Source: Geosiphon pyriformis uo1 (lineage: Eukaryota; Fungi; Glomeromycota). Taken from it: 64,000 bases of DNA. The position numbers were made by a program, and so were the translations under genes. Every line of letters starts with the position of its first letter. Within the stretch, counting starts at the first letter, position 1. Positions 9,401 through 60,900 of this stretch are shown piece by piece. The stretch is taken from NCBI GenBank assembly GCA_016748015.1, contig JAAOMT010000504.1:106781-170780 (forward strand). Reading direction: 5' to 3'. The notes under the pieces were generated by a model, which worked only from the letters and a program-made list of their open reading frames with translations, made no database searches and was not told where the DNA came from.

Positions 9401-12400
9401 AAAACTAATACCAACTACCACTACTGTCTATATCCCATACACCTATATTCCACTACAACCATCCAACTACCATTGACCAAAACTGGTATGCATTGATTGT
9501 GACAAGAAATTTTCATCAATGGGCACATGCTGTGGTGATGATGAAGAATATTCTATAGCAACCAAATTCTACTGCTGCTCTTGTGTTCTAGAATGTTTTG
9601 GATGACCAAAATAGCAAGAAAAATGGAACAACAAATCTTGACTTGCTTGTGGAAAAACTCTATTAGATGAAGAAATGTGGAATGACATTTTTGGATGAGA
9701 AGAAACATGCAATAAATTGTGTCAATACACAATCCTAATAAGTGACTGGGTAAGAAAAAAGACACCAATAAAAGCAGTATGAAGGAAAGCAGTAAAACAA
9801 TTAGATAGATGTTCACATGACAATGATAAAATCTGGTAAATGGCACTTGCAAAAATTGAAGAAACATCACTAGAAGAAATAAGAATAATCAAAAACAACT
9901 CACTAAAACTCATAGAACTTGACTGGGGCCCAAACTCAGATATTATCCTAAAGCCTATGAATCCAAAACAATTTCACAAGCACTACCAAAAATTAGCACC
10001 CACTTGAAAAGAACAAGAGCAATGGTTGGAAAAAATAAATACCTGACTATGTGACCACTGTTTAATTCCATATGACTTTAAGTATTGTAATGAGTATGAC
10101 CTTATTTACAATTTACCATCATGCATAATTTACACAATTCTAGAGGAAGATAAACCAATCAGCAGCTGTGCATCAGAATTGGAGTCAATTTTCAATTCTG
10201 ATTCAAATTCCAACAATGATAATAATAAAAACAACAGTTCTAGCTCTACTCAATATGACAACAAAAAATATAACAATTTGGACTTCAATTTAAACCCCAA
10301 AACATACATTACACTTTCTGATCTCTCCAAAGAACAGGAACTCAAATGGTTCAATGACAACAATAAAGATATTATGCCAGAATGTGTGCATGATACTAAT
10401 GCCAGATTTGATCTGAAATATCCAAGGAAGGATGCCATTAAATTGAAACCACATTCACACACTTGCATTGATCTTAAAGTAGCACTAGAAATTTTAGCAA
10501 CAACAATAGTTCAACTAGCATCTAAAAGTAGTTTAGTGAAAAAAAGAATCAACATCAGAAGAGAAATAATTAACACAGAATATATAGAAAATATCATTAC
10601 AATGTTACAAAACGACTTAGAAAAGGCCTACATCATAGAGCCAAACAAAAAAATAGCATAAACAATATTCTTGTTTTTGGTTAAAATAGCTCAATTAGTA
10701 TTAGTAAGAAGCAGAAAAAAATTAGAAATTACAGCTAGAGAAATACAGGATTTCAGATCCACAGGTAGAATAGATGTACCAATTAATATGGCAGAGGAAA
10801 AAATTATTGACAAGGAAAAAATTATCTTCATCTGTTAATCAATTTCTATTCCATCATATAATCAGTACATGGTAGTCATAGAAAGAAAAGTAAAGGATCA
10901 AGTTCAAATTTTTGAAACAGAAGCAACACTTTGTGAATCAGAAAAGATTGGATTAGTCAATTTATACATACCAGCCAAGAACCACAGGTACATTAAAATT
11001 CCTATTTACAACAACACGGAAGATACCATTGAGATACCAGAAGGAACTACCATTGGATATTTAACCACCAAAATTAAAAACCAACTGCCAAACACTATTT
11101 CAGACTTTTCACAACTGTGTGAATATGTAGATATTATATCTCAAACAATATACAGACAAGAAAAATGTTATCTGCTTTAACCAGAACAATTGGAACAAAT
11201 AAACTTGGGAAATCTAGACCCACTACAATGTATATAGCTTAAGATGTTACTCAACAACTTCAACAACATTTTTGCTAATGAAAACAAATTCAGCAGAACT
11301 GACATTATTCAATATTAGATAAAAACTGAAGATACAATGCCAATTAAGCAAAAAGCATACAGAATACCACTAGCCAGCCATGAAATTATTTATCAAGAAA
11401 TCAATTGAATACTTAACAATGAGCTAATTCAGCCATCAATAAGTCCATAGTTATTATCAGTGGTACTAGTCCATAAAAAAAATGGAAAAATTCACTTTTG
11501 TGTGAATTACCAAAAACTGAATAAAGTAACAAAGAGAAATAGTTACTCAACACCAAAAATACAAGAGCTGTTCAATGCTTTTGGAGAAAAGAAATAGTTC
11601 TCAACTTTAAACTTAGACAGTGGTTACTGGCAAATAGCCATGAAACCAGAAAATAAAGAGAAAACAGCTTTTACAACTAGAGAAAAAATTTTGAATTTGA
11701 AGTAATACTATTTGGCTTAATAAATACTTCAGTCATATTTTAATGACTCATAGAAATTGTCTATATAAGACTGCTATGGAAATCAGTAATCATATATCTG
11801 GATAACACTAATGTGTTTTTAAAAACATTTGATGATCATTTACATTATTTCTAATAAGTATTCGAAAGACTAAAAAAAGCTGGATTGAAGCTAAATGCCA
11901 CCAAATGCTTTTTCAGAAAAACAGAGCTAAAATTCTTGGGACATGTTGTAAGCAAAGACAAAATTAAGATAGATCCAGACAAAATTGAGATAGTTAAGAA
12001 CTTTCTAGTACCCACCAACTTGACAGAACTACAAGCATTTTTGAGATTTGCTGGATACTACTGCTACTTTATTAAAGACTTTTCCAAAATAGCTCAACCA
12101 CTATACCAACTCCAAACAAAAAACACTAAATACGAATGGACTAAAACCCAGCAAAAAGCTTTTAATAAATTACAAAGAAAGCTTATTCAAGCTCCAGTAC
12201 TGATTTATTCAGATCATAGTAAACCATTCTTAATCACAACTAATACATTGAGTTAAACATTTGGAGCAGTACTATCTCAGAAAGAACCAAATAGACAAGA
12301 ACATCCAGTAGTTTATGCTAGCAGAAGCTTAAGTCCAGCTGAGAAAAATTATGGAATGCTAGCACTAAAACACTTGGCTATCTATTGGACTATCATCAAA

Positions 12401-26300: not shown

Positions 26301-29300
26301 GTCTAATATAAACAATTTTTATAAGTTGTTGAAATGTGGCTGAAGCATTGGTTAAGCCAAATAGCATGACTTCAAATTCGAAATTTTCTTTTCTAGTAGT
26401 AAATGTGATCTTTTTTTTGTCAGCTGGATTCATGGCTACTTGCCAGTAACCACTATCTAAGTTTAATGTAAAGAACCATTTTTTTCTTTCAAAAGCATCA
26501 AATAATTTCTGGATTTGGAAAGTGAGATAGTTGTCTTCATAAGTTACACTATTGAGTTTTTTATAATCCACACAAAAGCAGATTTTTTCATTTTTCTTAT
26601 GGACTAGTACCATTGGTGACAACCATAGACTTATTGATAATTAAATTAATCTGTTGTCCAATATTCTGTTAATTTTTTGTTGGATGATTTTATAGCTGGC
26701 TAGTGGTACTTAGTAGAATTGTTGTTTAATTGGCATAATATCTTTAGTCTTGATTTGGTATTGAATAATGTTAGTTCTGCTGAATTCATTTTCATTGGCA
26801 AAGATATTAGTAAAATTGTTAAGCAATATCTTAAACTGCATTCATTGGGATGGATCTAAGTTTCTTAAGTTTATCTGTTCTAATTGTTCTGGTTAGAGCA
26901 AATAGTATTTTTTTTGTCCATATATTGTTTATAATATGATATCCACATATCCACAAAGTTGTGAAAAATTTGGAATAGTGCTTGGTGGTTGGTTTTTAAC
27001 TTTAATGCTTAAGTATCCAATAATAGTTCTACTTAGTATTTTAATGGTGTCTCTCATTGTGTTGTGAATGAGAATTTTGATATGTTTGTTGTTTTTAGCC
27101 AGTATGTAGAGATTGGTAATAGCAATTTCTCTTAATTCATAAATACTTAGTTTTGCCTTAAAAATTTGGAACTGATCTTTTACTTTCCTTTCTATGATTA
27201 CTAAATACTGATCATATAGTAAAATAGAAATTGATTAATAAGTGGAGATAATTTCTTCTTTGTCAATAACTTCTTCCTCTGCCATATTAACTGGTATGTT
27301 TATTTTACTCATGGATTTGAATCCACTTATTTTTTTTGCTGTTATCTGTAACTCCTCTCTTTTTTTCACTAACACTAATTCAGCTATTTTAACCAAAAGT
27401 AGGAATATTGTCTGTGCTATTTTTTCATTTGGTTAAATAATATACTCTTTTTTTGAGTTATTTTGTAATATTACAATAATATTTTCTAAATATTCTGTGT
27501 TAATTATTTTTCTCTTAATGTTGATTTTCTTCTTTGCTAAACTAGATCTAAATGCTAATTGTACTATGGTTGTTGTCAAAACTTCTAGTGCTATTTTCAG
27601 ATCAATACAGATGTGTGAATATGATTCTAATTTGATGGCATTCTTTCTGAAATATTTCAAATCAAACTCTGCATTAGTATCATATATGTGTTTTGGCATA
27701 ATACTTTTATTATTATCATTGAACCATTTTAGTTCTTGCTTCTTGGAAAGATTAAGGAATACAATATATTGTTTAGGGTTATAATCAAAGTTTAAATCAT
27801 TGTTATTATTATTGTCAATTTGAACAGAGCTGAAACCATTGTTATTGTCATTGTTATTGGAGTTTGAACCAGGATTAAATACTAATTTTAATTCTGATAC
27901 ACAGCTGTTAATTAGTTCTTCTTCTTCTGGAATTGTGTAGATTATGTATGGTAGTGGATTGTAAATAAAGTAACACTTATTGCAATATTGAAAATTACAT
28001 GAAATCAAACAGTAATTACATAGTTAGATGTTTAATTATTCTAAACATTGTTCTTGCTCTTTTCTGGTGGGTGCTAAGTTTTGATAGTGTTCATAAAATT
28101 GTTCTGAGTTCATAGTGTTGAAAACAATATTGGAGTTTGAAGTCCAATTGAGCTCTATGAATTCTGGCAGATTATTTTTAATTTCTCTATTAATGTGCTT
28201 TTAATTTTAGTGAGTGCCATTTATTAGATTTTATCATCATCATGTGGACAACTATTTAAGTGTTTTATAGCTCTTTTTTAGACAGTGTCTATAGACATTC
28301 TTTTTCTTATATAATTACTGATTAAAATTGTGTATTAACATGATTCATTGCATATTTTTTTATGACCAGGAATGTTGTTCCATATTTTTTTGTCTAAAAA
28401 AGTTTTTTTACAAGCCAGACATGGTTTATTGTCTTATTTTTCTTGTCATTTAGGTTATCTAAATTGCTTAAGAACATATAGGCAGCAGTAATACTTAGTT
28501 GCTATCAGCTACTTCTCATCATCATCACAACATGCATCTATTGATAACAATTTCTTGTCACAATCAACACATATTAATTTAGGTCAATGGTAAGTTGAGT
28601 TAGAGCAATTGGTAGTGTATGGTATATAAGTAGAGATTGTTGCTTGGGGTTTTTCTTCTTTTTTTTTTTCTCTTTTTTTTTTTTCTCTCATATAGGCACT
28701 GGTGGTAAGCTATTATAGTTATCATTAGCCCATAAGACTTGGTAGGCTTTCCAAGTAGGTCTTTCTTTCTTTTCTTCCAATTTAATTAAGGGGTTTTGAG
28801 TGGTGTTGGTTGGTTTGAAATGACCAAATATGGCTGGTACTCTAGTGTGCTAACCATTTTGGCTAAGTTGTAATTCTTGAGTGGTTCAGTTAAGCACAGC
28901 ATTTGTCTCAGACAATCAGTCATTACCAATTAGAGCTTGGTACTAAGTAGTTTTTATAATAAGAACTTTAATTGGTATATTGATGCTATTGACTTCAATT
29001 AGAAAGTTGTTGATTTTACCAATTGGAGTTTTGGTGGCTCTATCAGCAGTAATAATTCTGGTACTAACAGTATGATCAATTCAGTGATCTAATTGGTCTA
29101 TGAATTGCTTGGTAATAATGCTGTCTGTTGAACTGCTATTTAAGATCAGTTTGATGAACTGACCATCAATCTTAGCATTGATGTACATTGTGGTAATGGG
29201 TTTTGTGTCTAAAGCAGCTCTACTAAATAATAGATTTATTAACAGTTACTTGGATTCAAAGGAAAAGATTGTGGATAGTGATTCATTATTAGTGATGGTT

Positions 29301-34000: not shown

Positions 34001-37000
34001 AGAAATTTTTATCAATAAGCACATACTGTGATAACAATAAAAAATAGCCAACAGCAAAAAAATTATATTGCCATCCATGCATTCTAGAATGATTTAGATA
34101 ACCAAAAAGACAAGGAAAATGAAATAACAAATCTTGTCTTGTCTGTAAAACCATTTTGCTAAGAAATATGAAATAATATTCTTAAACATAGAAGAATATG
34201 CAACAAAATGTGCCAATATACTATCCTAATAAATGACTGGGTATGCAAAAGAACTCCAATTAACAACACATAAAAAAGAGCATTGTAATAATTGGAAAAA
34301 TATCTTCATAATAAACATGAGATCTGGAGAATGGTAAGTGCAAAAGCAGAAAGTACTACTTTTAATGAACTACTGAAAATTAAAAACAACTCATTATTCT
34401 TTCCTGAACCCAAATATGTCCCAACTTTTGATATCTTTGGCAACATTAAAAATGACTCAGAAGAATTGTACAAGCACTATTAGTGCCTGGCACCAATCAA
34501 AAAAGAGCAAGAATAATGGCTAAAACAATTAAATACATGACTATACAAGCATTGTTTGATTTTTAATAACTTTGAATATTGTAATAAGTGTAATTTTATT
34601 TACAATTCATTACTGCACATAATCTACACAATTCCTGAAAAAGAAGAACCAATTAGCAGTTGTACATCAGAATCAGAATTGATATTCAATCTCGATTCAA
34701 ACTCTGACAATAATGACAATAACAATAGTTCCAGCTTTGTTCAAAATAGTAATAACAATAACAATAATTTAAACTTTGATTCAAACTCAGAACAATATAT
34801 TGCACTCTTTGATCTTTCTAAGAAGCAAGAACTGAAATAATTCAGTGATTACAATAAAAGTATCATGCCAGAATCTATGCATAATACTGATACAAGGTTT
34901 GATCTGAAATATCTAAGAAAAAAAGCCATCAAATTAAAACCATATTTACACACTTGTATTAATCTAAAAATAGCAATAGAAATCTTAGCAACAACAATGG
35001 TTTAATTAACATCTAAAAGTAGTTTAGCAAAAAGGAGAATCAATATATGAGGAGGAATAATTGATACAAGATATATAAAAAATATTATTACAATGCTACA
35101 AAATAATTCAGAAAAAGCTTATATTATAAAGTTTAATGAAAAAATAGCACAGACAATATTTCTGCCTTTGGTTAAAATAGTTCAGTTAGTACTAATGAGA
35201 AATAGAAAAAAATTAGGAATTACAGTTAGAGGGATAAGTAAATTTGGATCCATGAATAGAATAGACATACCAGTTAATATGGCAGAAAAAAAAATTGTTG
35301 ACAAGAGAAAAATTATCTTCACCTGTCAATCAGTTTCTATTTTATTATATAACAAGTATATGTTAGCATTGGAAAAAATAGTGAAGAATTAGGCAGATTT
35401 TTGAAGCTGAACCAACCATTTGTAAATCAGAAAAAATCAGGCTTACCAATCCTTACATACTAGCCAAAAACAAGAACCACATCAAAATTTCTATCTACAA
35501 TACAACAGGAAATGTTATTGAGATACCAAAAAAAACTACCATCAGATATTTAAGCACTGAAGTAGAAAACCAATCACCAAACTTTATTCCAGATTTTCCA
35601 CAACTTTGTGAATATGTGGACATTATATCACAAACAATATACAGACAAAAAGAATATTATCTGCTCCAACCAGAACTATTAGAACAAATAAACTTGAGAA
35701 ATCTAGACCCACTACAATATATGCAGCTTAAGATGTTACTCAATAACTTTAACAACATTTTTGCCAGTAAAAATGAATTTGGCAGAACTGATATCATCTA
35801 GCATTAAATTAAAACTGGAGATACAATGCTAATTAAACAAAGAGCATACTGAGTACTACCAGCAAGCCATGAAATTATTTGAGAGAAAATCAATCAAATA
35901 TTAGACAACAGATTAATTTAACTATTAATGAGTTCATGATTATTATCAATGTTATTTGTTCATAAAAAAAAATGAGAAAATTTGCTTTTGTGTAGATTGC
36001 AAAAAATTCAATAAAGTAATTTGTAGAGACAATTATCTAACTTTACAGATTCAAAAATTATTCAATGTTTTTGAAGAAAAAAAATGGTTCCTGACATTGG
36101 ATTTAAACAGTGGTTACTGGCAAATAGCCATAAATCTAGCTGATAAGAAAAAAATAGCATTCATAACTAGAGAAAGAAATTTCAAATTTGAGATAATGCC
36201 ATTTGGCTTGATGAACACTCCAATTACATTCTAATGGCTCATGAAAATTGTTTATACTGAATTGCTATAAAAATTATTAATCATATATCTGGATAACACT
36301 AATGTATTCTCAAAAACATCTAATGATCATTTTTATTATCTACAACAAGTGTTTGAAAAATTCAGATGTATTAAATTGAAATTAAATGCAAACAAGTGTT
36401 TCTTCAGCAAAACAGAACTGAAATTCTTACAACATATTGTAAGCAAAGACAACATCAAAACAGATTCATACAAAATTAAAATAGTCAAAAACTTTTCAGT
36501 ACCAACCAACTTAACAGAACTCAGAGCATTCTTAAAATTTGCAGATTACTACTGCTGCTTTATTAAAGACTTTTCTAAACTGGCTTAACTACTTTACCAG
36601 CTTCAAACCAAAAATGTTAAATATAAGTGAACAGAAACTTAGCAAAAAGCTTTCAATATATTGTGAAAAAAGCTTATCCAAGCACTAGTACTAATTTATT
36701 TAGATTATAGCAAGCCATTCATTATTATTACTGATGTATCAGGTCAAATATTGGGAGCTGTACTATCTCAGAAAAAACCAGATAGAAGAGAACACCCAGT
36801 AGCATATGCCAGTTAAAGTTTAAGTCTAGCCAAAAAAAACTATAGAATACTAACATTAAAACACTTAACTATTTATTGAGCAGTTATTAAATAAAAAGAA
36901 TACTTAAGCCAGAAGTTTGATGTGTACACTAATTACAAAGAATTGACTTCAATCCAAAAACAAAAACTTGAAGACAATTGCCATACAAGATAGAAAATAG

Positions 37001-42900: not shown

Positions 42901-44506
42901 TTAATGAAAAAAACTCAATTTTAAGGGCCCTGTTTCTGTGTAGTTTAAATTGGCATGTAAGTATTTGGTTAACTTTTTCTGTTGTTTTGTTGTATAGTCT
43001 TTTATTAATAACATCCAATGTTTAAACATTTTTGATTTTAATGGTTTTTTTATAGTATAATAGTGTCTTTTTAAAGCTGATTTAAATATCATCAATGTTT
43101 ACATAAATAAATCTTTAAAAAACTTAAATATATACAAGATAAGATATGATGTGACTGTATTTTTTGGATTTGAATTTGGGCATTGGTGTCAAGATCAATA
43201 GTTTGGTTTCTTTCATGATAGTTGAATTACAGACAATTGCTCTGGTTTTGAAATATGTTCTTGTAGATAATAGCATTGTAGTACATTTGAACAGTCAGGC
43301 TGCTCTAGATGCTTGTAATCTTGAGTTAAGATTGGCTCTATTAGATTTCCACAATTGGTATTGGATAGAAAGGCATAATGTGATAAACTTTATTAAGGAT
43401 AAGAGGCTTAATGTATCTTGGTCTAAGATTAAAAGCCATTCAAAGCTCTCAGGCAATAAGCATGCTAATAAATTGGCTGACTTATCTTTATGCTCGAATT
43501 TAATACTTTCTGTTTTTGTTAAAAAAAGTTATATTAGGGCTGGTAGAGTGAAAGTGTTTGATAATATTTGTTATTTTGTGTATAGTGTCTTTAGGGCTAT
43601 TTATTGAACTTACTGAAAGATAAGATTTGGATTTAATGTTATTGATGCAAATATGATTAAAAATGTGAATTGGATTAGAATTTTTTTGGTGTGGTATTTT
43701 AACTTACATATAGTGTTTGGCTTTACAAGTAAACTTACTGCCAATTTGCACTCATATTTTATGAAGGCTTTGTATTGTTGTTTACTAGTTGCTGTCAGAA
43801 AGCACTTGTATGATAGAACTTATTTCAGTGTATTGTGTCTTTATTGCAGCAAGATGAAACTTCTTAATTACTTATTTATATATATAATAAACTCTGCTAC
43901 TTATACAAAATTGCTTAATTCTCATATAATTTAGTAGGTCTTTATGTTAGAATTGAGTCTGTTTTTATTTTATGTCATGCAATTGCTTTCTATATATGCT
44001 TCTGATTTTGGAATGTATATTGCTTTGTACAAGAGTTTTGTTTTTAAAAATTGTTAATTGAAGACTTTGTCCGTTTTTGGATGTGCTAAAATTGCTGGCA
44101 AAATAATTATTAAATTGGTAAAAAGTTTGGAAATAGTTTATTAAACAGAGATGTGAATAATAAAAGCCAAGTTTAAAGTGATTATAGAAAAAAGGATTTG
44201 ATTGTAGGCAATAATTCAGTACTTTCAGGGATCTATAGGTTTTTATTATTGTTTTCTGTTAAAGTTGTTAAATTATTTAGTATTGTGAAGATGCATAATA
44301 TTGGTTTTGGTTTTTGCAAGTCTTGCAGTTTTTTTTTGGTATTAATTATACAATGTCTATTAGAATAAATCTATAATGTTGCTTTAATTGGCCTAAATAG
44401 TTAGTTATATATAGAAAGTACATAATTTGCACCTAATTTATATTACATAATTTGATGTATTGTATTAAGTAATATTTGGATCTTATTTGTAAAATGTTAA
44501 TAATAA
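40000..44506 (+). mobile_element. LINE-2: ORF2 from mid-endonuclease through RT, RNase H, C-terminal Cys/His motif and 3'UTR
   Basis: KTINYVFIS and NTNY (IDY/TDH), DM-KAYDS, AFINDTIW, RNase H remnants ELQTIALVL, NSQAAL, KIKSHSKLSGNKHANKLA, CLYC motif; stop 44374-44376; 3'UTR matches 48972-49106. Confidence 0.92.
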
Positions 44507-46644
44507 ATTAAATGACAAAATTAATAACTTATTTAGTAAAATAAAACATTATATAAAATATTAATAATAGAAATTTAAAAAAATAATTAAGAATACATAC
44601 ATATTTTAAAAATTAATAAAAATTATTTAAAGCTTGAAAAAAAAAAATATATATATATAAAATAATTAACTGTTTATTATAAAACAAAAAAAAATTGATA
44701 TAATATAAAACTAATACTTTTTTTAATTTATAGAAAACTGTATATATAGCTAAATTACATAAAATCTATATATTATATTAAGACTACTTAAAATATATTA
44801 ATTATTTATATATATTTAATTACTTAATTCAATTGTAAACTTAATTAATATGTTATTTTTTTGGAAGTAAATAATTTAAATAATAAGATTTAAATGGTTA
44901 AATTTAAAATTATAATTATATATTATTAATATTAATTATGTTTATAATCAATATAATTAGACATAGATTAATTAATTAGATTTTTTGATAATTATTTTGG
45001 ATAGTAATTACAGATCTGAAATATTATATTGTATAAATAAGAATATATAAGCATCTTAAAGCATATCAAAATCTGTTGTTATTAAATTATATATAACAAT
45101 TTTTAATTTTTATTGGTGTTTTTAGTTTGCCAAGATTTTTTTGTATTTAATTTAATTAAACAATTAGATTGTAATAAATCTTTTTGTTATTATTAAGCTG
45201 ATTATTGATTTTTTTTTTTATTTGCTAACTAATTTGTTAATTAAATTTGATAATATAGATTTTTTTTACATGATTTTAATAATAATTTTTTTAGTATATT
45301 GTTGTAATTTTTGCATTAAAAATCATGTAAATTTTTGGTAATATTAAAAAACAATTATAATATAATATACTAATAAAAAACTTTTTTTTTGCTAATATTG
45401 TATTTTTAGAATATAATAAAAAAAATACTAATAAATTTATGTTTTTGTAATAACTAAAAAATTATATTAAAATATGTAATATTTTCTTAATATTAAAAAA
45501 TATAAAAAAACTTTTTGTTATTTATCTAAATAATATAAAAAAACAGCTATTTTTTTTACAAAAAATAATGGGGTTTTTTTTATCTGTAACAACAAAAAAA
45601 AATAGTTATTACTTAAATTTATTTTATATATTAAAGTATTATAATAAGATTAAAATATTTAGATATGATGTTTATTGTTTTTTAATTATAAGCAATTATA
45701 TTTATTTTTGTTATTCTATTTATAATACATATTTTTTAATACTTTATTAATTGTATTACACAAAAAAAACCAAATATTCAAGATAATAAAAATAATCAGT
45801 TAAATAAAAATAATCTACTAATTTAATTAATAATTTTTTTGTTAATTTTAAACAAATATTAATTTTATAAAATTATAAAATATTTTTAAAAAGAAAATAA
45901 GAAAACAACCTAATTTTTTATGATCTGAAATCTTAAAAAGTTTTATAATTAAGAAATAAAAAAAAAATTATAGTTTAATATATAAATTAAATTATTTAAT
46001 TGACTAATAAATTATGTATTATTTAAAATTATATAATGTTGATATTTTTATATTTTAATTGATTAATAAAAATCCAAAATTACATGCCATATAAAATCAT
46101 ATAAAACATGAGATTTTGAGTTTTTTTCTTTTTTTCTTTTATAATAACATAATATATATTTGTTTTCTTAGTTAATTTAGTTTTTAATTATAATAATCTA
46201 ATTGTAATTATATAAAAAGTAATTATATTAAGTAAATTTATTTTTGTAAATCCAATATAATTTAATTTTAACTAACTTAATTGGTTAATTATATGTAAAT
46301 AAAGTATAAATTATTTTTAATTTAAAATATTTTAATATTATATTGTATTAAACTATGTTTTATTAAAACATAAAAAAAAATATACTGTTTGTTTTTTTAT
46401 AAAAAATATTGCATTTATGTATTTTAATTAATGTTTTACAATTATTTTATTTATAATAACTTTATAATTATTGTTAATCTTAAATATTTTTAATTGTTAA
46501 ACTAAATTTTACTTTTACCACATTATGCAAAAAAATAGTTTACAAGCAAAAAATTAACACTTAAATCTGTTTATTATTAAATGATTAAAGTAAATTGGCC
46601 ATAACCCTATTATATATGATGTTTTTGAAATATAATGTTTTTTG

Positions 46645-48243
46645 TTATATTTCCAATGTATTTTCAGGCAAGTGATAATCTTTATGAAATTGTTGAACTT
46701 CAGCACCAAACTTTTCTAACCATTTCTCTTCATCAGTTATTTTCCATCTACTCGCATCCTCAACAGATGCAACAAATTGTTTCAGCCCTCCCTCCAATTT
46801 ATCTATTAACTCTAACAACGACATTTTCCTTCCAACCTTGATAATTGCAATGATTTGACACAATTCGATGTAGTCCTGAATAATTGCTTGACATGAATCG
46901 AATCGAAGTTGCAGCATAGTTGCAAGGCCAAAATCAATAAAATAGAAACGTTCATTTCTTCGTATAATGTTCCGAATAGCGACATCCCCATGTGCATAAC
47001 AATTGGAGTGAATCTGTTTCAGACACGACCATAAGTCCAGAATGATTTGAAAAAGTGTGTAATCATTTATATCACCGTTATCGGAAATCCAAGATTCCAG
47101 AGGTTGTCCCACGAAGTCTGTTATTATTGCCTGAAATCCTCCCATTGTATGGCCTTCAAAGAGAATTTTGGGAACACAAGAAAGATTGCTTAATGCATGC
47201 AATGCCGATATTTCTTGATAGATTTGAGAAAATTCAGAGTTTTTGCGGACCTCAATCTTCAATCAAAAAAAATTAGTTGATCGATATGATAAGTTTAATA
47301 TACAGATATGGGAATTAATTTACCTTCAGAACAGCCTCCTTTATTCCATAATCCAGTACTTGTACCAAAAATACTAGACTCTCTTTTCCAGTTCCGAGGT
47401 GGGATATAACTTGTACATGAATATCATTTCCAGAGTCTAATTTGATAATAAAACCTTTTTTGATGAAAGAAGCCAAGAGACTTTCAGGAGTCAATGATAA
47501 TTTAAGAAACATATAAGCCTTATCATTATTTGGAGAATCTTTTTTTTCGCCAGATGCTTTCATCAAGTATTCACCATAATAATGATTGATTAAGCCAGCG
47601 ATAAGTGAAGCCGTTTGAGTATTCCATATATACAGTTGACTTTCTCCCATTGCCAATTTGTTTCGGGCTTCATTTATGGTGACTTTCATAAATTGCCAAT
47701 GGTTTCCGTCAGTTAAACATCCATAGAAGACTGATGTTAAAGGAACATTTGCTGTAAGGTATATACTAGCGTACTTTACTATCTGTCCTTTCCCTGTTTT
47801 TCCTTTTCTCTGATCGATTATATCATTTTTGACTTCCCAACCTAATCCCTTTGATAAATCGGGTGGATTATTCGTCAATTGACTATAGTATTGATTTAAA
47901 CCAATTATGATATCAGGATAAACTTCATCTTCTTTTCTATAACTGGTATCTCCAAGTACAAGTAAGTCTTTCAAACTCAAACATTTTACTGTTTCATCCA
48001 CAACCTTTTTGCAAAATGGCTGGTGTTGCTTTACTTCATCTGATCCTTTAGTAGGAGGAGAAGGTAGTTTTTTAAATGTTTGTTCACCAATCCGTGGTAG
48101 TCTCTGTATCTCATTTTCCATCTTCCACATTTTTACCCAATTATTTTGTCTCATATATCTGTACACAGAGGAGGAATTTTTTGATTTGCCTGTCTCAAGT
48201 TGTAATATCACTGATCGCAGGCCTGCAACTTGGTCTCTAGATT
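46645..48243 (-). CDS. Intact spliced gene: PD-(D/E)xK nuclease-like domain fused to a compact protein kinase (Crinkler-like / FunK1-like); exons ~48243-47324 and 47256-46645; true start uncertain
   Basis: YPDIIIG...WEVK...GQIVKYA...YGCLTDGNHWQF; kinase HLGTGKESLV, EAVLK|IE, QEISAL, HGDVAIRN, IDFG; phase-0 GTAAAT...CTAAT...AG intron 47323-47257 joins the two track ORFs; no stops; CpG retained. Confidence 0.88.
47257..47323 (-). other. 67-nt spliceosomal intron in the kinase gene
   Basis: AAG|GTAAAT...CTAAT...GAAG|ATT; removal joins the kinase beta3 Lys to the alphaC Glu in frame. Confidence 0.88.
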
Positions 48244-48908
48244 CTTGTGAATGAAATAATGATAGTGAGGCACAAGTTAAAAAAATGACAGCGAGAAAAG
48301 CAGTGTAGATGGGATGCAAAATTTAAAATAAAATTAGAGCATTGACATAAGAATATCTAAAAAGAATCATCGATCATAATATCAGAAAACCCTATTACTG
48401 TGTCTACTCTATCCTACGGAGGTAAAAAGGAGAGAACGACGTACCTGAAATATGGACCCAGTTGATGGAATGAAACAGGGCGTACGCGAATAGAGGACAG
48501 CAATAAGTTCACGAGTTAGTCAACATCGAAAACATTCCCATGAACGGATGAATAAACGAGGCAGAAGTGATGCATGGAAAATAAATGCCTACCTTCGTCT
48601 AACAAGATAGGTTTGACAACAGAAAATAAGAGATGAAAAAGAGAAATAACCACTTGTTAGTCAGCTATCGGTCAATAACAGAGACGCATAAACATGAACC
48701 AAAGAACACACGTTGAATGGAAGGAAAAAGCAGTACAGGTAGATATGTGAACACAGTCGTTCAGAAAGTGCATTACACAAAAGAGAGGAGAATAAGACAC
48801 AGACAGCAAAAAAAAGAAACGTCGTTAGTTGTCATAAACTCTACTCTATATACGCTGTCTACTCTAACCTAGTACATACTACTCTACCACCCCAACACCT
48901 AAGCAACA

Positions 48909-48928
48909 NNNNNNNNNNNNNNNNNNNN
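48909..48928. other. Assembly gap (20 N)
   Basis: Run of N. Confidence 1.
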
Positions 48929-48971
48929 TACAATATTAATAATATTAAAAAACTCACTAATTATGTTTAAA

Positions 48972-49147
48972 TTTTTTTTATTAACCCATTTAATGAGTGC
49001 AGTCCAATTGCTATCTAGTACATAGAACCAAACTAAGTGGCTCAAACTAAATGCAGCTCACGCTTTTACTACATGTGGCCAGCCACTCAGATCAGACAAG
49101 ACAACACTACACATCTATATTAACACAAGCATCTCCATCCAAACCAC
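48972..49147 (-). mobile_element. Short 5'-truncated LINE 3' end (last codons of ORF2, 3'UTR, A tail)
   Basis: GLDGDACVNIDV* then a UTR collinear with LINE-2 44377-44503, ending TTAATAAAAAAAA. Confidence 0.8.
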
Positions 49148-49683
49148 ATTTTTTATTATTATAAAATAGACTTTAATATATTATAAATAAAATAATTTTA
49201 AATTAATTATTGTATATTTTAAATATTTAATTTATATGTTATTGTAAAAATTTATGCAATATTAAATTTAAAACAAAAATTTAATTATTTTTAAAACATA
49301 ATGTTTTTAACAATTTTATTATTATTTTTAATAATAATAATAATAATAAAGTTATTAATATTTTTATACTTTTTTATATTTATTTATAAAAAATATATTA
49401 TATTTATAGTAATAATAGTATTTATTTTATTAAAACAATTTTATAATAGTATTATTTTTAATAATAAATTTAAAAAAATTAATAAATTTTATATTATAAG
49501 TATTGTTATCAGTGGAATTTTAGTTATTAATTAGCATAAAATTACTCTTATAATTTCTATTATTAATTAGTATATATTAATATTATTTCAATTATTATTT
49601 ATTATTTAATCAAATTATTAAATATTACTATTTAATTAATAATCTGATTTGTACAATAAAAATTAAGATGAAAATTAAAAAAA

Positions 49684-49841
49684 TTCTCTTTTGTTAATCT
49701 CTTATTCATGATAAAAGCAAAAATTTTTCATAAAAATAGCTTTTTCTTTTTTCTACTTTAGTTATTTCTTTTAATATATCTTCTTTTGTTACAATAAAAC
49801 TGGTGGACTTATCTGCTAGTGGTTTTAATTCTGGCTTAACT
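49684..49841 (+). mobile_element. LINE 5' stub (5'UTR and first ~16 codons of ORF1)
   Basis: Collinear with reverse complement of ~18065-18240; (M)KLVDLSASGFNSGL vs LINE-1 (M)ELVNFSAGGSNSDL. Confidence 0.7.
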
Positions 49842-50684: not shown

Positions 50685-50834
<150 letters not shown>

Positions 50835-51119
50835 CCCATATAGATACTGGTGATAAGTTGTTATGGTCATTATCTGTCTAGAAGACTTAATAAGCTTCTC
50901 AAGTGGGTTTCTTTTTTTTCTTTTCAAACTTGATCAGTGACTGCTTATTTTTAGTAGTTTTGAAATGTCTACAAGTGGCTAATATCTGAATATTCTAACT
51001 ATTCTGACTCAGTTGTAATTTCTGAATGTTCTAATTGAGTATAATATTGATTTTGAACAATCAGTTATTATTAACTAGAGCTTAGTACTGTATGGCTTTC
51101 ATTATCAACACTTTAATGA

Positions 51120-57900: not shown

Positions 57901-60900
57901 TGCACCAAATGAAAATTACTGGATGTGAACCCACTATTACTGCAAGTCATATCACCAAGAACAGTATAACTATCCAAAACAACAAGACAAGTGGGACAAC
58001 AAACCATGTCTCACTTGTGGAGAACAGTTGCTTGATAAAGGAATATGGAATAACATTTCTAGTCAAGAAAGAACATGTGACACTTTGTACCAGTACATGA
58101 TCCTTATAAATGACTGGATAAGCTGTGGCACTTCCATTACAGCAGTCTGGCACTGAGCAATAACTTGCTTAGATGATTATCCACATAATGAAGACAAGAT
58201 TTGGAGAATGATAAATACCAAAATAGAAGGAGCCATGTCTAGTAAAATCTTAGAAATTAAAAATAATCCCCCAGAACCAGTTGACATCATTTTCATCCCA
58301 AACCCAGATGCTTTTTTCAACATAGAGACAGGCCCAGAAGAGTTTCATGAGCACTATTAAAACTTGGCACCAACAAGAGAAGAGTAAGAACAATGGTTGG
58401 AAGAAATAAACACAAAACTATGTGACCATTGTTTGATTCCATATGACTTTTAGTATTGTAATAAGTGTGATCTCATTTACAATCCACCACTACACATGAT
58501 TTACACAATCCCAGAGGAAAAAAAACCAATCAGCAGCTGCACATCAGAATTGGAATTAATTTTCAATCTCAATTCAAACTTCGACAATAATGATGATAAA
58601 AATAATGGTTCCAGTTCTACTTAAAATGACAATGAAAACAATAACAATTTAGACTCTAATTCAAACCCCAAAACATACATCACACTTCCTGATCTTACCA
58701 AAAAACAAGAACTGAAATGGTTTAGTGATAATGATGAAGATATTATATCAGAACAAGTGCATGATACTAATGTAGAGTTTGATCTAAGATATCTGGAAAA
58801 AGATGCCATCAAATTGGAACCATATATACACACCTGCATTGATCTCAAAATAACACTAGAAATTTTAGCAACAACAATAGTCCAACTAGCATTTAGGAGT
58901 AGTTTAGCAAAAAAAGGAATCAATATCAAAGAAGAAATAACTGATGCAGAATATGTGGGAAATATCATTATTATGTTACAAAATGACTCAGAAAAGGCCT
59001 ATATCATAGAGCCAAACAAAAAGATAGCATATGTAATATTCCTGTTTCTGGTTAAAATAGCTCAATTAGTATAAGTGAGAAACAGAGAAGAATTAGGAAT
59101 TACAGCAAAAGGAATACAGGGATTTGGATTCACAGATAGAATAAATATATTAGTCAATATGGCAGAAGAAGAGGTTATTGACAAAAAAGAAATTATCTCC
59201 ACCTGTCAACTAATCTCTATTCTATCATATAACCAATACATAGTAGTCATAGAGAGAAAAGTGAAAGACCAGGTCCAGATTTTTGAAGCAAAAGCAACCC
59301 TTTGTGAATCAGAAAAAATTGGATTAGTTAATCTACACATACCAGCCAAGAACCACAATCACATTAAAATTCCCATTTACAACAACACAAAAGACATCAT
59401 TGAGATATCTGAAGGGACCATCATTGGATACTTAACCACTGAAATTGAAGACCAATTGTCAAACACCATTCCAGACTTTCCACAACTGTGTGAATACATG
59501 GATATTATATCATAAACAATATATGGATGAGAAGAATATTATCTGCTCTAACCAAAACAATTGGAACAGATGAACTTGAGAAACTTAGACCCACTTCAAC
59601 AAATGCAACTCAAGATATTACTCAACAAATTCAATAACATCTTTGCCAGTGAAAATAAATTTGGCCATACTGATATCATCCAGCATCAAATCAAGACTAG
59701 GGATGCAATGCCAATAAAACAATGAGCATACAGAGTACCACCAACCAGTTATAAAATTATTTGTTAAGAAATCAATCAGATGCTTGACAATAGGTTAATT
59801 CAATTATCAATGAGCCCATAGTCATCACCAGTGATACTAGTCCATAAAAAGAATGGAAAAATTTGTTTTTGTGTAGACTACCAGAAACTGAATGGAGTAA
59901 TAAAGAGAGATAGCTATTCAACTCCAAAAATCCAAGAACTGTTCAATGCATTTAGAGGAAAGAAATAATTCTTAACTTTAGACTTAGACAATGATTACTG
60001 GCAAGTAGCCATAAAACCGGAAGATAAAAAAAAGACAGTTTTTACAATGCAAAAAAGAAATTTCGAATTTGAAGTAATGCCATTTGGCTTAATGAATGCT
60101 CCAGCCACATTCCAATGGCTTATAGAAATTGTTTATAACAAACTATTATAGAAATCAGTAGTCATATATTTAGATGACATCAATGTGTTTTCAAAAACAT
60201 TTGATAATCATCTGTATTATTTTCAACAAGTATTTGAAAAACTCAGATGAGCAGGATTGAAATTAAATGCAAACAAATGTTTCTTTGGCAAAACAGAACT
60301 CAAGTTCTTGGGGCATGTTGTGAGAAAGATGACATCAAAATAGATCTGAACAAAATTGCAATAGTAAAGAACTTTTTAGTACTAACTAACTTGACAGAAT
60401 TAAAAGCATTTTTGGAATTTGCAGACTATTATTGCTGCTTTATCAAAGACTTTTCTAAACTGGCTCAGCCATTCCATCATTTACAAACCAAAAATAAGAA
60501 GTATGAATGGACAGAAGCTAAACAAAAAGCATTTGACACATTAAGAAGAAAGCTTATTCAAGTTTCAGTATTGATATATCCAAATCATAGCAAACCATTC
60601 ATCATCATCACCAATGTATCAGACCAAGCATTGGAAGCAGTATTATTACAAAGAAGACTGGATGGAAGAGAACATCTAGTAGTATATGCCAACCAAAATT
60701 TGAGTTCAGCTGAAAAAAATTATAGTACACCAGCATTGGAACACTTAGCAATCTATTGGACAGTCACAAAATAGAAGGAATACTTGAGCCAAAAGTTTGA
60801 TGTGTATACTGACCACAAAAGATTAACTTCAATCTAGAAACAAAAATTTGGGGATGATTGTCATGTAAAATAGAAAATAGCACTATTACTATATATATTT

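What the first reader, a model, noticed from the sequence alone, without database searches (positions are those of the whole stretch)
46645..48243. Intact nuclease-kinase fusion gene isolated in dead retroelements
Seen: PD...EVK...GQ-KY...LTDG-W-F nuclease-like motifs with putative catalytic D, E and K intact, joined to a kinase with Gly loop, Lys, Glu, HGD-x4-N and DFG but a very short C-lobe without an APE motif. Established: REase-plus-kinase architectures occur in Crinkler-type effectors and FunK1-like families. Inference: a conflict/effector or anti-TE toxin kept functional in a repeat compartment; no Crinkler header is visible, but it could be in or beyond the gap.
Basis: partly seen in the sequence, partly recalled or inferred. 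Interest (0 to 1): 0.72.

Follow-up and report, generated by a model that had tools for sequence, protein, structure and literature searches.

The report
Live Crinkler-type nuclease–kinase gene, mycorrhizal lineage
This is an intact, spliced fungal gene among decayed retrotransposons that joins a predicted restriction-enzyme-like DNA cutter to a kinase, a known Crinkler-type layout; the kinase likely keeps the cutter in check so that the protein would harm mainly cells or nuclei that lack the gene.

Summary
Observation confirmed, gene model refined. The minus-strand gene has two stop-free exons split by a 67-nt intron that is spliced out in a contig of one public run. That contig continues into sequence absent from the window, so a header exon probably lies in the assembly gap. 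The product matches an NCBI protein named Geosiphon pyriformis G9A89_015511. The N-domain folds like the type IIG restriction enzyme BpuSI (Z 12.4) with D, E, K and QxxxY intact; the kinase keeps K, E, D, N and D. The same module occurs across Glomeromycotina behind interchangeable headers, including the Pfam Crinkler header in its nearest full-length relatives. It is therefore a new member of the known Crinkler-RHS (CR) REase+kinase class, not FunK1 and not a new architecture. The gene is a CpG island (o/e 0.67 against 0.05), which suggests long escape from methylation. Across homologues the kinase catalytic residues are almost invariant, while the nuclease glutamate is lost repeatedly. That asymmetry fits a Spok-like self-protected toxin, but counter-examples exist and nothing was assayed. 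No evidence supports an anti-transposon role. Interest 0.4.

The parts
46645..47256 (-). Last coding exon: kinase from the end of strand beta-3 through alphaC, the catalytic loop, DFG, a short C-lobe and the stop
47257..47323 (-). 67-nt GT..AG phase-0 intron right after the kinase beta-3 lysine; same position in metagenome locus L001
   Evidence: spliced joint in run X1; L001
47324..48243 (-). Main coding exon: helical lead-in, nuclease domain, linker and start of the kinase N-lobe
   Evidence: the 40 codons upstream of the annotated Met align with homologues
47567..48082 (-). PD-(D/E)xK nuclease domain of HsdR/type IIG kind (P0001 residues 14-185) with D70, E96, K98 and QxxxY
   Evidence: AlphaFold model pLDDT about 90 here; BpuSI Z 12.4, rmsd 3.3, 146 aligned; Atlas HSDR_N for homologue P0020
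46648..47413 (-). Kinase domain (intron included), non-RD, short activation segment, no APE
48244..48592 (-). Inferred intron (GT..AG, 349 nt); its 3' end resembles the matching intron of L001
   Evidence: contig match stops at 48246 with a loose end
48593..48598 (-). Candidate 6-nt micro-exon between phase-1 introns; L001 has a 15-nt micro-exon at the same place
   Evidence: start of the loose end matches here, flanked by AG and GT; too short for a joint call, so inferred
48599..48908 (-). Inferred upstream intron, CpG-rich, running into the gap
48909..48928 (.). Assembly gap (20 N); likely holds the header exon and promoter
   Evidence: the rest of the loose end has no match of 10 nt or more anywhere in the window
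46561..48908 (.). CpG-retaining island: 48 CpG, o/e 0.67, against 59 CpG and o/e 0.053 in the rest of the window

Best explanation
The gene is an intact, spliced member of the Crinkler-RHS (CR) REase+kinase class in a Glomeromycotina fungus; it likely acts as a self-guarded DNA-damaging conflict protein whose predicted nuclease would cut DNA and whose kinase would restrain that nuclease in the producing cell. Shown: two stop-free exons, splicing in one run, intact catalytic motifs, family membership, header swapping among relatives, CpG retention. Predicted: the HsdR/type IIG nuclease fold. Inferred: (1) Mg-dependent DNA cleavage by D70/E96/K98; (2) the kinase, lacking a normal activation segment, phosphorylates the protein itself or a small target and so holds toxicity down; (3) the missing header sets localisation; (4) toxicity falls on nuclei or cells that receive the protein without making it, such as fusing non-self hyphae, competitors or resident bacteria. 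The target was not identified.
For: Fold: BpuSI nuclease domain, Z 12.4 over residues 14-185. Atlas: 19 of 30 named-cluster hits for homologue P0020 fall in the HSDR_N set (top score 0.93, family on 22% of that cluster). Headers: PF20147 above cut-off in 6 of 23 homologues scanned (23 picked from 77), SAM above cut-off in 1 and below it in 2. The window gene sits in a starred 5-row clade with Crinkler-headed P0036 and P0037. Selection: end branch 0.069 against 0.23 for its decayed paralogue P0002; dN/dS against L001 is 0.24 for the kinase exon and 0.66 for the nuclease part (one pair). Asymmetry: kinase K/E/D/N/D kept in 236 of 238 cells, nuclease D/E/K in 127 of 141 (cells, not events). E96 is Lys in 7 of 36 tree rows, needing 4-5 changes. 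Three homologues have header plus kinase without the nuclease (P0040, P0064, P0067). Precedent: in SPOK3 an HsdR-like QxxxY nuclease kills and the kinase protects (PMC6660238 passages); CR kinases are proposed to regulate the REase (PMC5289972 section 11).
Against: No activity was measured. Nuclease-whole, kinase-broken relatives exist: P0013 and P0021 (possibly gene-model errors) and L002, which by eye has a frameshift between the domains. In Phytophthora CRN8 the kinase does not restrain killing: the D470N kinase-dead mutant still kills and phosphorylated serines are needed for death (PMC3426532 passages). RiCRN1, a REase-type CRN of a mycorrhizal fungus, causes no cell death (PMC6131194 abstract). 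Glu-to-Lys occurs at similar rates at non-catalytic columns (5 of 47, 7 of 41, 8 of 50), and D70 is kept in 47 of 49, so E96K may be tolerated or a mutation hot spot. The kinase half of the model has low pLDDT. This gene's header is unseen.
Confidence: 0.55

Rival explanations
1. Symbiosis effector: a Crinkler-headed protein delivered to the partner (the Nostoc cells in Geosiphon, plant nuclei in mycorrhizal relatives), where the kinase activates or tunes DNA binding or cutting, as in CRN8 and RiCRN1.
For: Nearest full-length relatives carry PF20147. RiCRN1 acts in arbuscule development and localises to plant nuclear bodies (PMC6131194 abstract). RiCRN3 is listed as CR-Ubl1+CR-REase8 with an out-of-frame kinase (supplement file 2). 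CRN8 needs phosphorylation for death.
Against: Many relatives have SAM-like or helical headers. Both Crinkler-headed nearest relatives have lost E96. The few in-frame codons of the loose end, read by hand, do not show the HxxVxxP ending seen in P0036 and P0037. The hydrophobic stretch at 48244-48322 that looks like a signal peptide is intron.
Confidence: 0.2
2. Domesticated signalling protein: the kinase is the selected function and the nuclease domain serves as a DNA-binding or scaffold module.
For: The kinase is far more constrained than the nuclease; nuclease-less and E96K relatives exist; SAM headers are signalling-type modules (established knowledge).
Against: D70, K98, QxxxY and D138 stay conserved in most homologues from nine named genera, and the window gene keeps all of them. 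Relatives decay often, as expected of a high-turnover conflict family.
Confidence: 0.15
3. Anti-transposon nuclease, or a gene that is itself a recently inserted mobile element.
For: It is the only long reading frame in a window of retroelement relics. CpG retention could also mean recent arrival. CR proteins are argued to derive from transposons.
Against: No transposase or RT domain. Only AT-rich repeats of chance type flank it (the upstream end is hidden by the gap). Two Geosiphon-named copies among 76 hits. Introns are conserved with L001. The short branch since the split from P0002 suggests long retention. Nothing links the nuclease to TE DNA.
Confidence: 0.1

Closest known systems
Crinkler-RHS (CR) REase+kinase proteins (Zhang et al. 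2016, seen only through the review PMC5289972 section 11 and PMC6131194 passages and supplement; e.g. CRN8, RiCRN3 = CR-Ubl1+CR-REase8 with a kinase out of frame)
   Same: Header - REase - kinase order; swappable Ubl and helical headers; PF20147 on close homologues; TE-rich location.
   Different: This gene's header is not visible. The kinase is non-RD (HGD), whereas CRN8 is an RD kinase. The numbered CR-REase family could not be assigned. Named hits are confined to Glomeromycotina.
Podospora and Fusarium Spok spore killers (PMC6660238, PMC9972908 passages; bioRxiv 10.64898/2026.10.04.756499 abstract)
   Same: HsdR-like PD-(D/E)xK nuclease with QxxxY followed by an ELK-like kinase in one chain; naturally occurring nuclease-impaired alleles.
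   Different: No cysteine cluster before the kinase; no ascomycete among named hits; variable headers rather than the Spok coiled coil and domain 1; no drive, killing or resistance shown.
Type IIG restriction enzyme BpuSI (3s1s) and the HsdR N-terminal nuclease
   Same: Predicted fold and catalytic motif of the N-domain.
   Different: No methyltransferase, specificity or helicase part; partnered with a kinase; 18% identity.
FunK1 fungal kinases (PF17667)
   Same: Kinase often near a nuclease-like domain (recalled); one weak Atlas row at 0.83 with PF17667 on 10% of members.
   Different: No PF17667 hit for this protein or the 22 homologues scanned.

Membership tests
CR REase+kinase | Restriction-endonuclease-fold domain with catalytic D..(D/E)xK | tested here: met
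   prediction only, and a truncated second model gave only Z 3.9, still with BpuSI first
CR REase+kinase | Protein-kinase-fold domain C-terminal to the REase | tested here: met
CR REase+kinase | N-terminal header (CR-Ubl PF20147 or helical) on this gene | tested here: inconclusive
   transcript continues into sequence absent from the window
CR REase+kinase | Same C-terminal module found behind CR headers, with header exchange | tested here: met
   PF20147 in 6 of 23 homologues scanned, SAM and helical headers in others
CR REase+kinase | Match to a numbered CR-REase family profile | not testable with these tools
   Zhang 2016 not held
CRN effector (strict sense) | Secretion and delivery to a host nucleus | not testable with these tools
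   needs the header and experiments
FunK1 | PF17667 Pkinase_fungal match | tested here: not met
   none at E<=1 for the kinase exon or at E<=0.01 for 23 proteins
Spok | HsdR-like nuclease with QxxxY upstream of a kinase | tested here: met
   against PMC6660238
Spok | Cys/His cluster upstream of the kinase | tested here: not met
   the linker of P0001 (about 190-236) holds no cysteine
Spok | Sequence homology to SPOK proteins | tested here: inconclusive
   no ascomycete among named hits; no SPOK sequence was compared directly; top Atlas clusters are unnamed Basidiomycota and Ascomycota proteins
Spok | Nuclease kills, kinase confers resistance | not testable with these tools
   only the conservation asymmetry, with counter-cases
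Autonomous transposon | Transposase or RT and terminal repeats | tested here: inconclusive
   none found, but the upstream end lies in the gap

The most novel reading that the evidence does not exclude
A Spok-like single-gene poison-antidote element in the coenocytic Glomeromycotina: the nuclease damages nuclei or fusing hyphae that lack the gene and the kinase protects carriers. This would bias nuclear inheritance in a shared cytoplasm without meiosis, and resistant-only alleles (E96K, nuclease deletions) would arise repeatedly.
Probability: 0.15. Interest if true: 0.85.

Novelty: new member of a known kind. Interest (0 to 1): 0.4.

Why it matters
As a family assignment it is ordinary: one more CR REase+kinase gene, here with a truncated public gene model. 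Its value is as a test case. It is intact, transcribed and apparently low-copy, and the published E. coli and yeast Spok assay could show whether CR kinases act as built-in antidotes. If they do, Crinkler effectors and fungal gene drivers share a mechanism, and mycorrhizal fungi would have a candidate for competition between nuclei and for non-self rejection at hyphal fusion. Spok killing through hyphal fusion is reported in Fusarium (bioRxiv 10.64898/2026.10.04.756499, abstract only). One whole-word search for Spok with Glomeromycotina found 0 papers, and CR-REase with kinase found 1; the library lacks most subscription papers.

Tried and rejected
No genome is held, so paralogues were counted only from named protein hits. 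No RNA holder is listed on record: the single run X1 has no library description, and its RNA nature is inferred from spliced joints. Its lack of cover over 48247-48900 is not used as evidence of absence. Pfam and PDB sequence searches do not recognise the nuclease; PADLOC gave only a 21-residue PD_DExK match at E 0.0016. The second fold, of the nuclease alone, was cut short of its last strands (pLDDT 52.8); Foldseek found nothing at E<=0.001 and VIA gave a best Z of 3.9. Foldseek on the full model listed only kinases. No relatives were confirmed in prokaryote genomes (0 of 10 pattern matches) or viral contigs (0 of 135); 2 of 54 were confirmed in metagenomes. HMMER over 1.84 billion representatives gave 38 hits and no bridge to distant families. 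The search for longer forms gave 6 known proteins and no fusion to a transposase. Zhang 2016 could not be read, and its supplements may already list this family. Three look-ups of earlier scan findings were empty. Rejected: a signal peptide at 48244-48322 (intron); the annotated Met at 48119-48121 as the true start (40 conserved codons and the contig run upstream of it).

Full report
Gene structure. The region holds two stop-free minus-strand frames. A 67-nt GT..AG intron at 47257-47323 joins them, and the spliced product from the Met at 48119-48121 is identical to stored protein P0001, which NCBI names hypothetical protein G9A89_015511 of Geosiphon pyriformis. The one public run that holds the stretch (X1, library not on record, flagged as possibly DNA) gave four contigs covering 46738-48246. 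One skips the intron exactly, so the run is most simply RNA and the gene is transcribed and spliced (one run, one study). The last contig leaves the window sequence at 48246 with a 33-letter loose end. Its first letters match a 6-nt stretch at 48593-48598 flanked by AG and GT; the rest has no match of 10 or more letters in the window. Metagenome locus L001 shows the same plan: a 63-codon header exon ending in phase 1, a 15-nt micro-exon, the nuclease exon and the kinase intron at the same site. I infer that the header exon lies in the 20-N gap at 48909-48928 and that the public gene model is 5'-truncated.

Context. Ten of 16 chosen fragments elsewhere in the window match gag, dUTPase, RT, RNase H or integrase, all broken into frames of 204 aa or less. 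The gene with its upstream introns has 48 CpG (o/e 0.67); the other 61.6 kb have 59 (o/e 0.053). Loss of CpG by deamination of methylcytosine is established knowledge, and CpG methylation of repeats is reported in Rhizophagus (PMC8647823 passages). The island therefore suggests long escape from methylation. Recent insertion is the alternative, but no terminal repeats were seen, introns are conserved, and the gene has a short branch (0.069) beside its decayed paralogue P0002 (0.23).

Domains. Pfam and PDB sequence searches miss the N-domain. The AlphaFold model from 31 sequences has pLDDT near 90 over residues 11-190 and low values over much of the kinase. Against 48,161 chains, residues 14-185 match BpuSI at Z 12.4, rmsd 3.3, 146 aligned, the only non-kinase among the 50 rows. 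The Atlas, run on homologue P0020, returns unnamed fungal clusters and then HSDR_N. A poorer truncated model gave Z 3.9, again with BpuSI first. D70, E96, K98, Q113-x3-Y117 and D138 are intact. The kinase passes Pfam Pkinase and keeps K266, E281, D357, N362 and D374. It is non-RD, has no APE, and has an invariant D394 (48 of 48) only 20 residues after DFG; this is the layout of eukaryotic-like kinases (recalled). PF17667 FunK1 was not hit.

Family. Searches gave 31 hits, 76 by profile, 38 among cluster representatives and 6 longer forms. Every hit with a species name is Glomeromycotina, from nine genera, and two are Geosiphon. None was confirmed in prokaryote or viral contigs. Of 23 homologues scanned, 6 carry the Crinkler header PF20147 and 3 a SAM match (1 above cut-off); others have a helical header. 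On a 36-row tree the window gene groups, with starred support, with P0002, P0007 and the Crinkler-headed P0036 and P0037 (quick method, midpoint root; rows covering under 60% of the nuclease or lacking E/K at 96 were left out). This is the header-REase-kinase layout that makes up about one sixth of CR C-termini (PMC5289972 section 11). A documented mycorrhizal example is RiCRN3 (PMC6131194 supplement file 2). The primary paper was not available.

Mechanism. Two tested proteins share the layout and disagree. In SPOK3 an HsdR-like QxxxY nuclease kills and the kinase protects in cis and in trans (PMC6660238 passages), and killing works through DNA damage in E. coli and yeast (PMC9972908 passages). 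In CRN8 one kinase-dead mutant still kills and phosphorylation promotes death (PMC3426532 passages). The comparative data lean to the Spok logic. Kinase catalytic residues are kept in 236 of 238 cells against 127 of 141 for the nuclease (Fisher p 3.5e-5, not corrected for relatedness). E96 is lysine in 7 of 36 rows, needing 4-5 changes. Three relatives have dropped the nuclease but kept header and kinase. Pairwise dN/dS is 0.24 for the kinase exon and 0.66 for the nuclease part. Against: P0013, P0021 and L002 keep the nuclease motifs with a broken kinase. Glu-to-Lys is as frequent at several non-catalytic columns while D70 is kept in 47 of 49. The same asymmetry would arise if only the kinase mattered. 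I put the self-guarded DNA toxin at 0.55, a delivered symbiosis effector at 0.2, domesticated signalling at 0.15 and anti-TE or mobile at 0.1. The family assignment itself is much safer, about 0.85.

Verdict. Real, intact and expressed; a new member of a known class, with a testable Spok-like reading. Papers seen: PMC5289972 (section 11 and passages), PMC6131194 (abstract, passages, supplement rows), PMC6660238, PMC9972908, PMC3426532 and PMC8647823 (passages), bioRxiv 10.64898/2026.10.04.756499 (abstract and outline). Zhang 2016 was seen only through others' accounts. That Geosiphon lives with Nostoc and is coenocytic is recalled.

Noticed in passing
window 47683-47782: One contig of run X1 skips these 100 nt with non-canonical ends and has 3 other letters: a minor splice form, a near-identical second copy or an artefact. 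It would remove the QxxxY helix and shift the frame.
   Followed up: partly
window 47047, 47135, 47758, 47819: Run X1 differs from the window at four places, all non-synonymous (Q336H, F307Y, L122F, I101M): alleles, a second copy or editing. A matched DNA run is needed.
   Followed up: partly
window 48244-48449 and 48599-48908: The two upstream intron halves are weakly alike (score 57, shuffle maximum 49 of 200), and a spare donor-like site lies near 48449. Possibly a duplicated micro-exon cassette at the header junction.
   Followed up: partly
window 44300-46600 and 48930-49700: Both flanks fall to about 10% GC with no CpG, far below the 25-35% of the retroelement relics; unexplained extreme decay beside an unmethylated island.
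   Followed up: no
window 58625-59071 (similar fragments at 10047-10658, 27436-28023, 35051-35389): The LTR-retroelement relics carry a dUTPase domain upstream of RT (for the first; the others by eye).
   Followed up: partly
window 46969-46992: The catalytic loop has Arg before Asn and no Lys two residues after the Asp, resembling the tyrosine-kinase pattern (pattern recalled; not tested).
   Followed up: no
window 50685-50835: Run of about 150 T, possibly a LINE poly(A) tail or an assembly artefact.
   Followed up: no
L002 490-520 and 720-800: Metagenome relative with whole nuclease motifs but, by eye, a frameshift before the kinase and a deletion at the kinase intron acceptor.
   Followed up: partly
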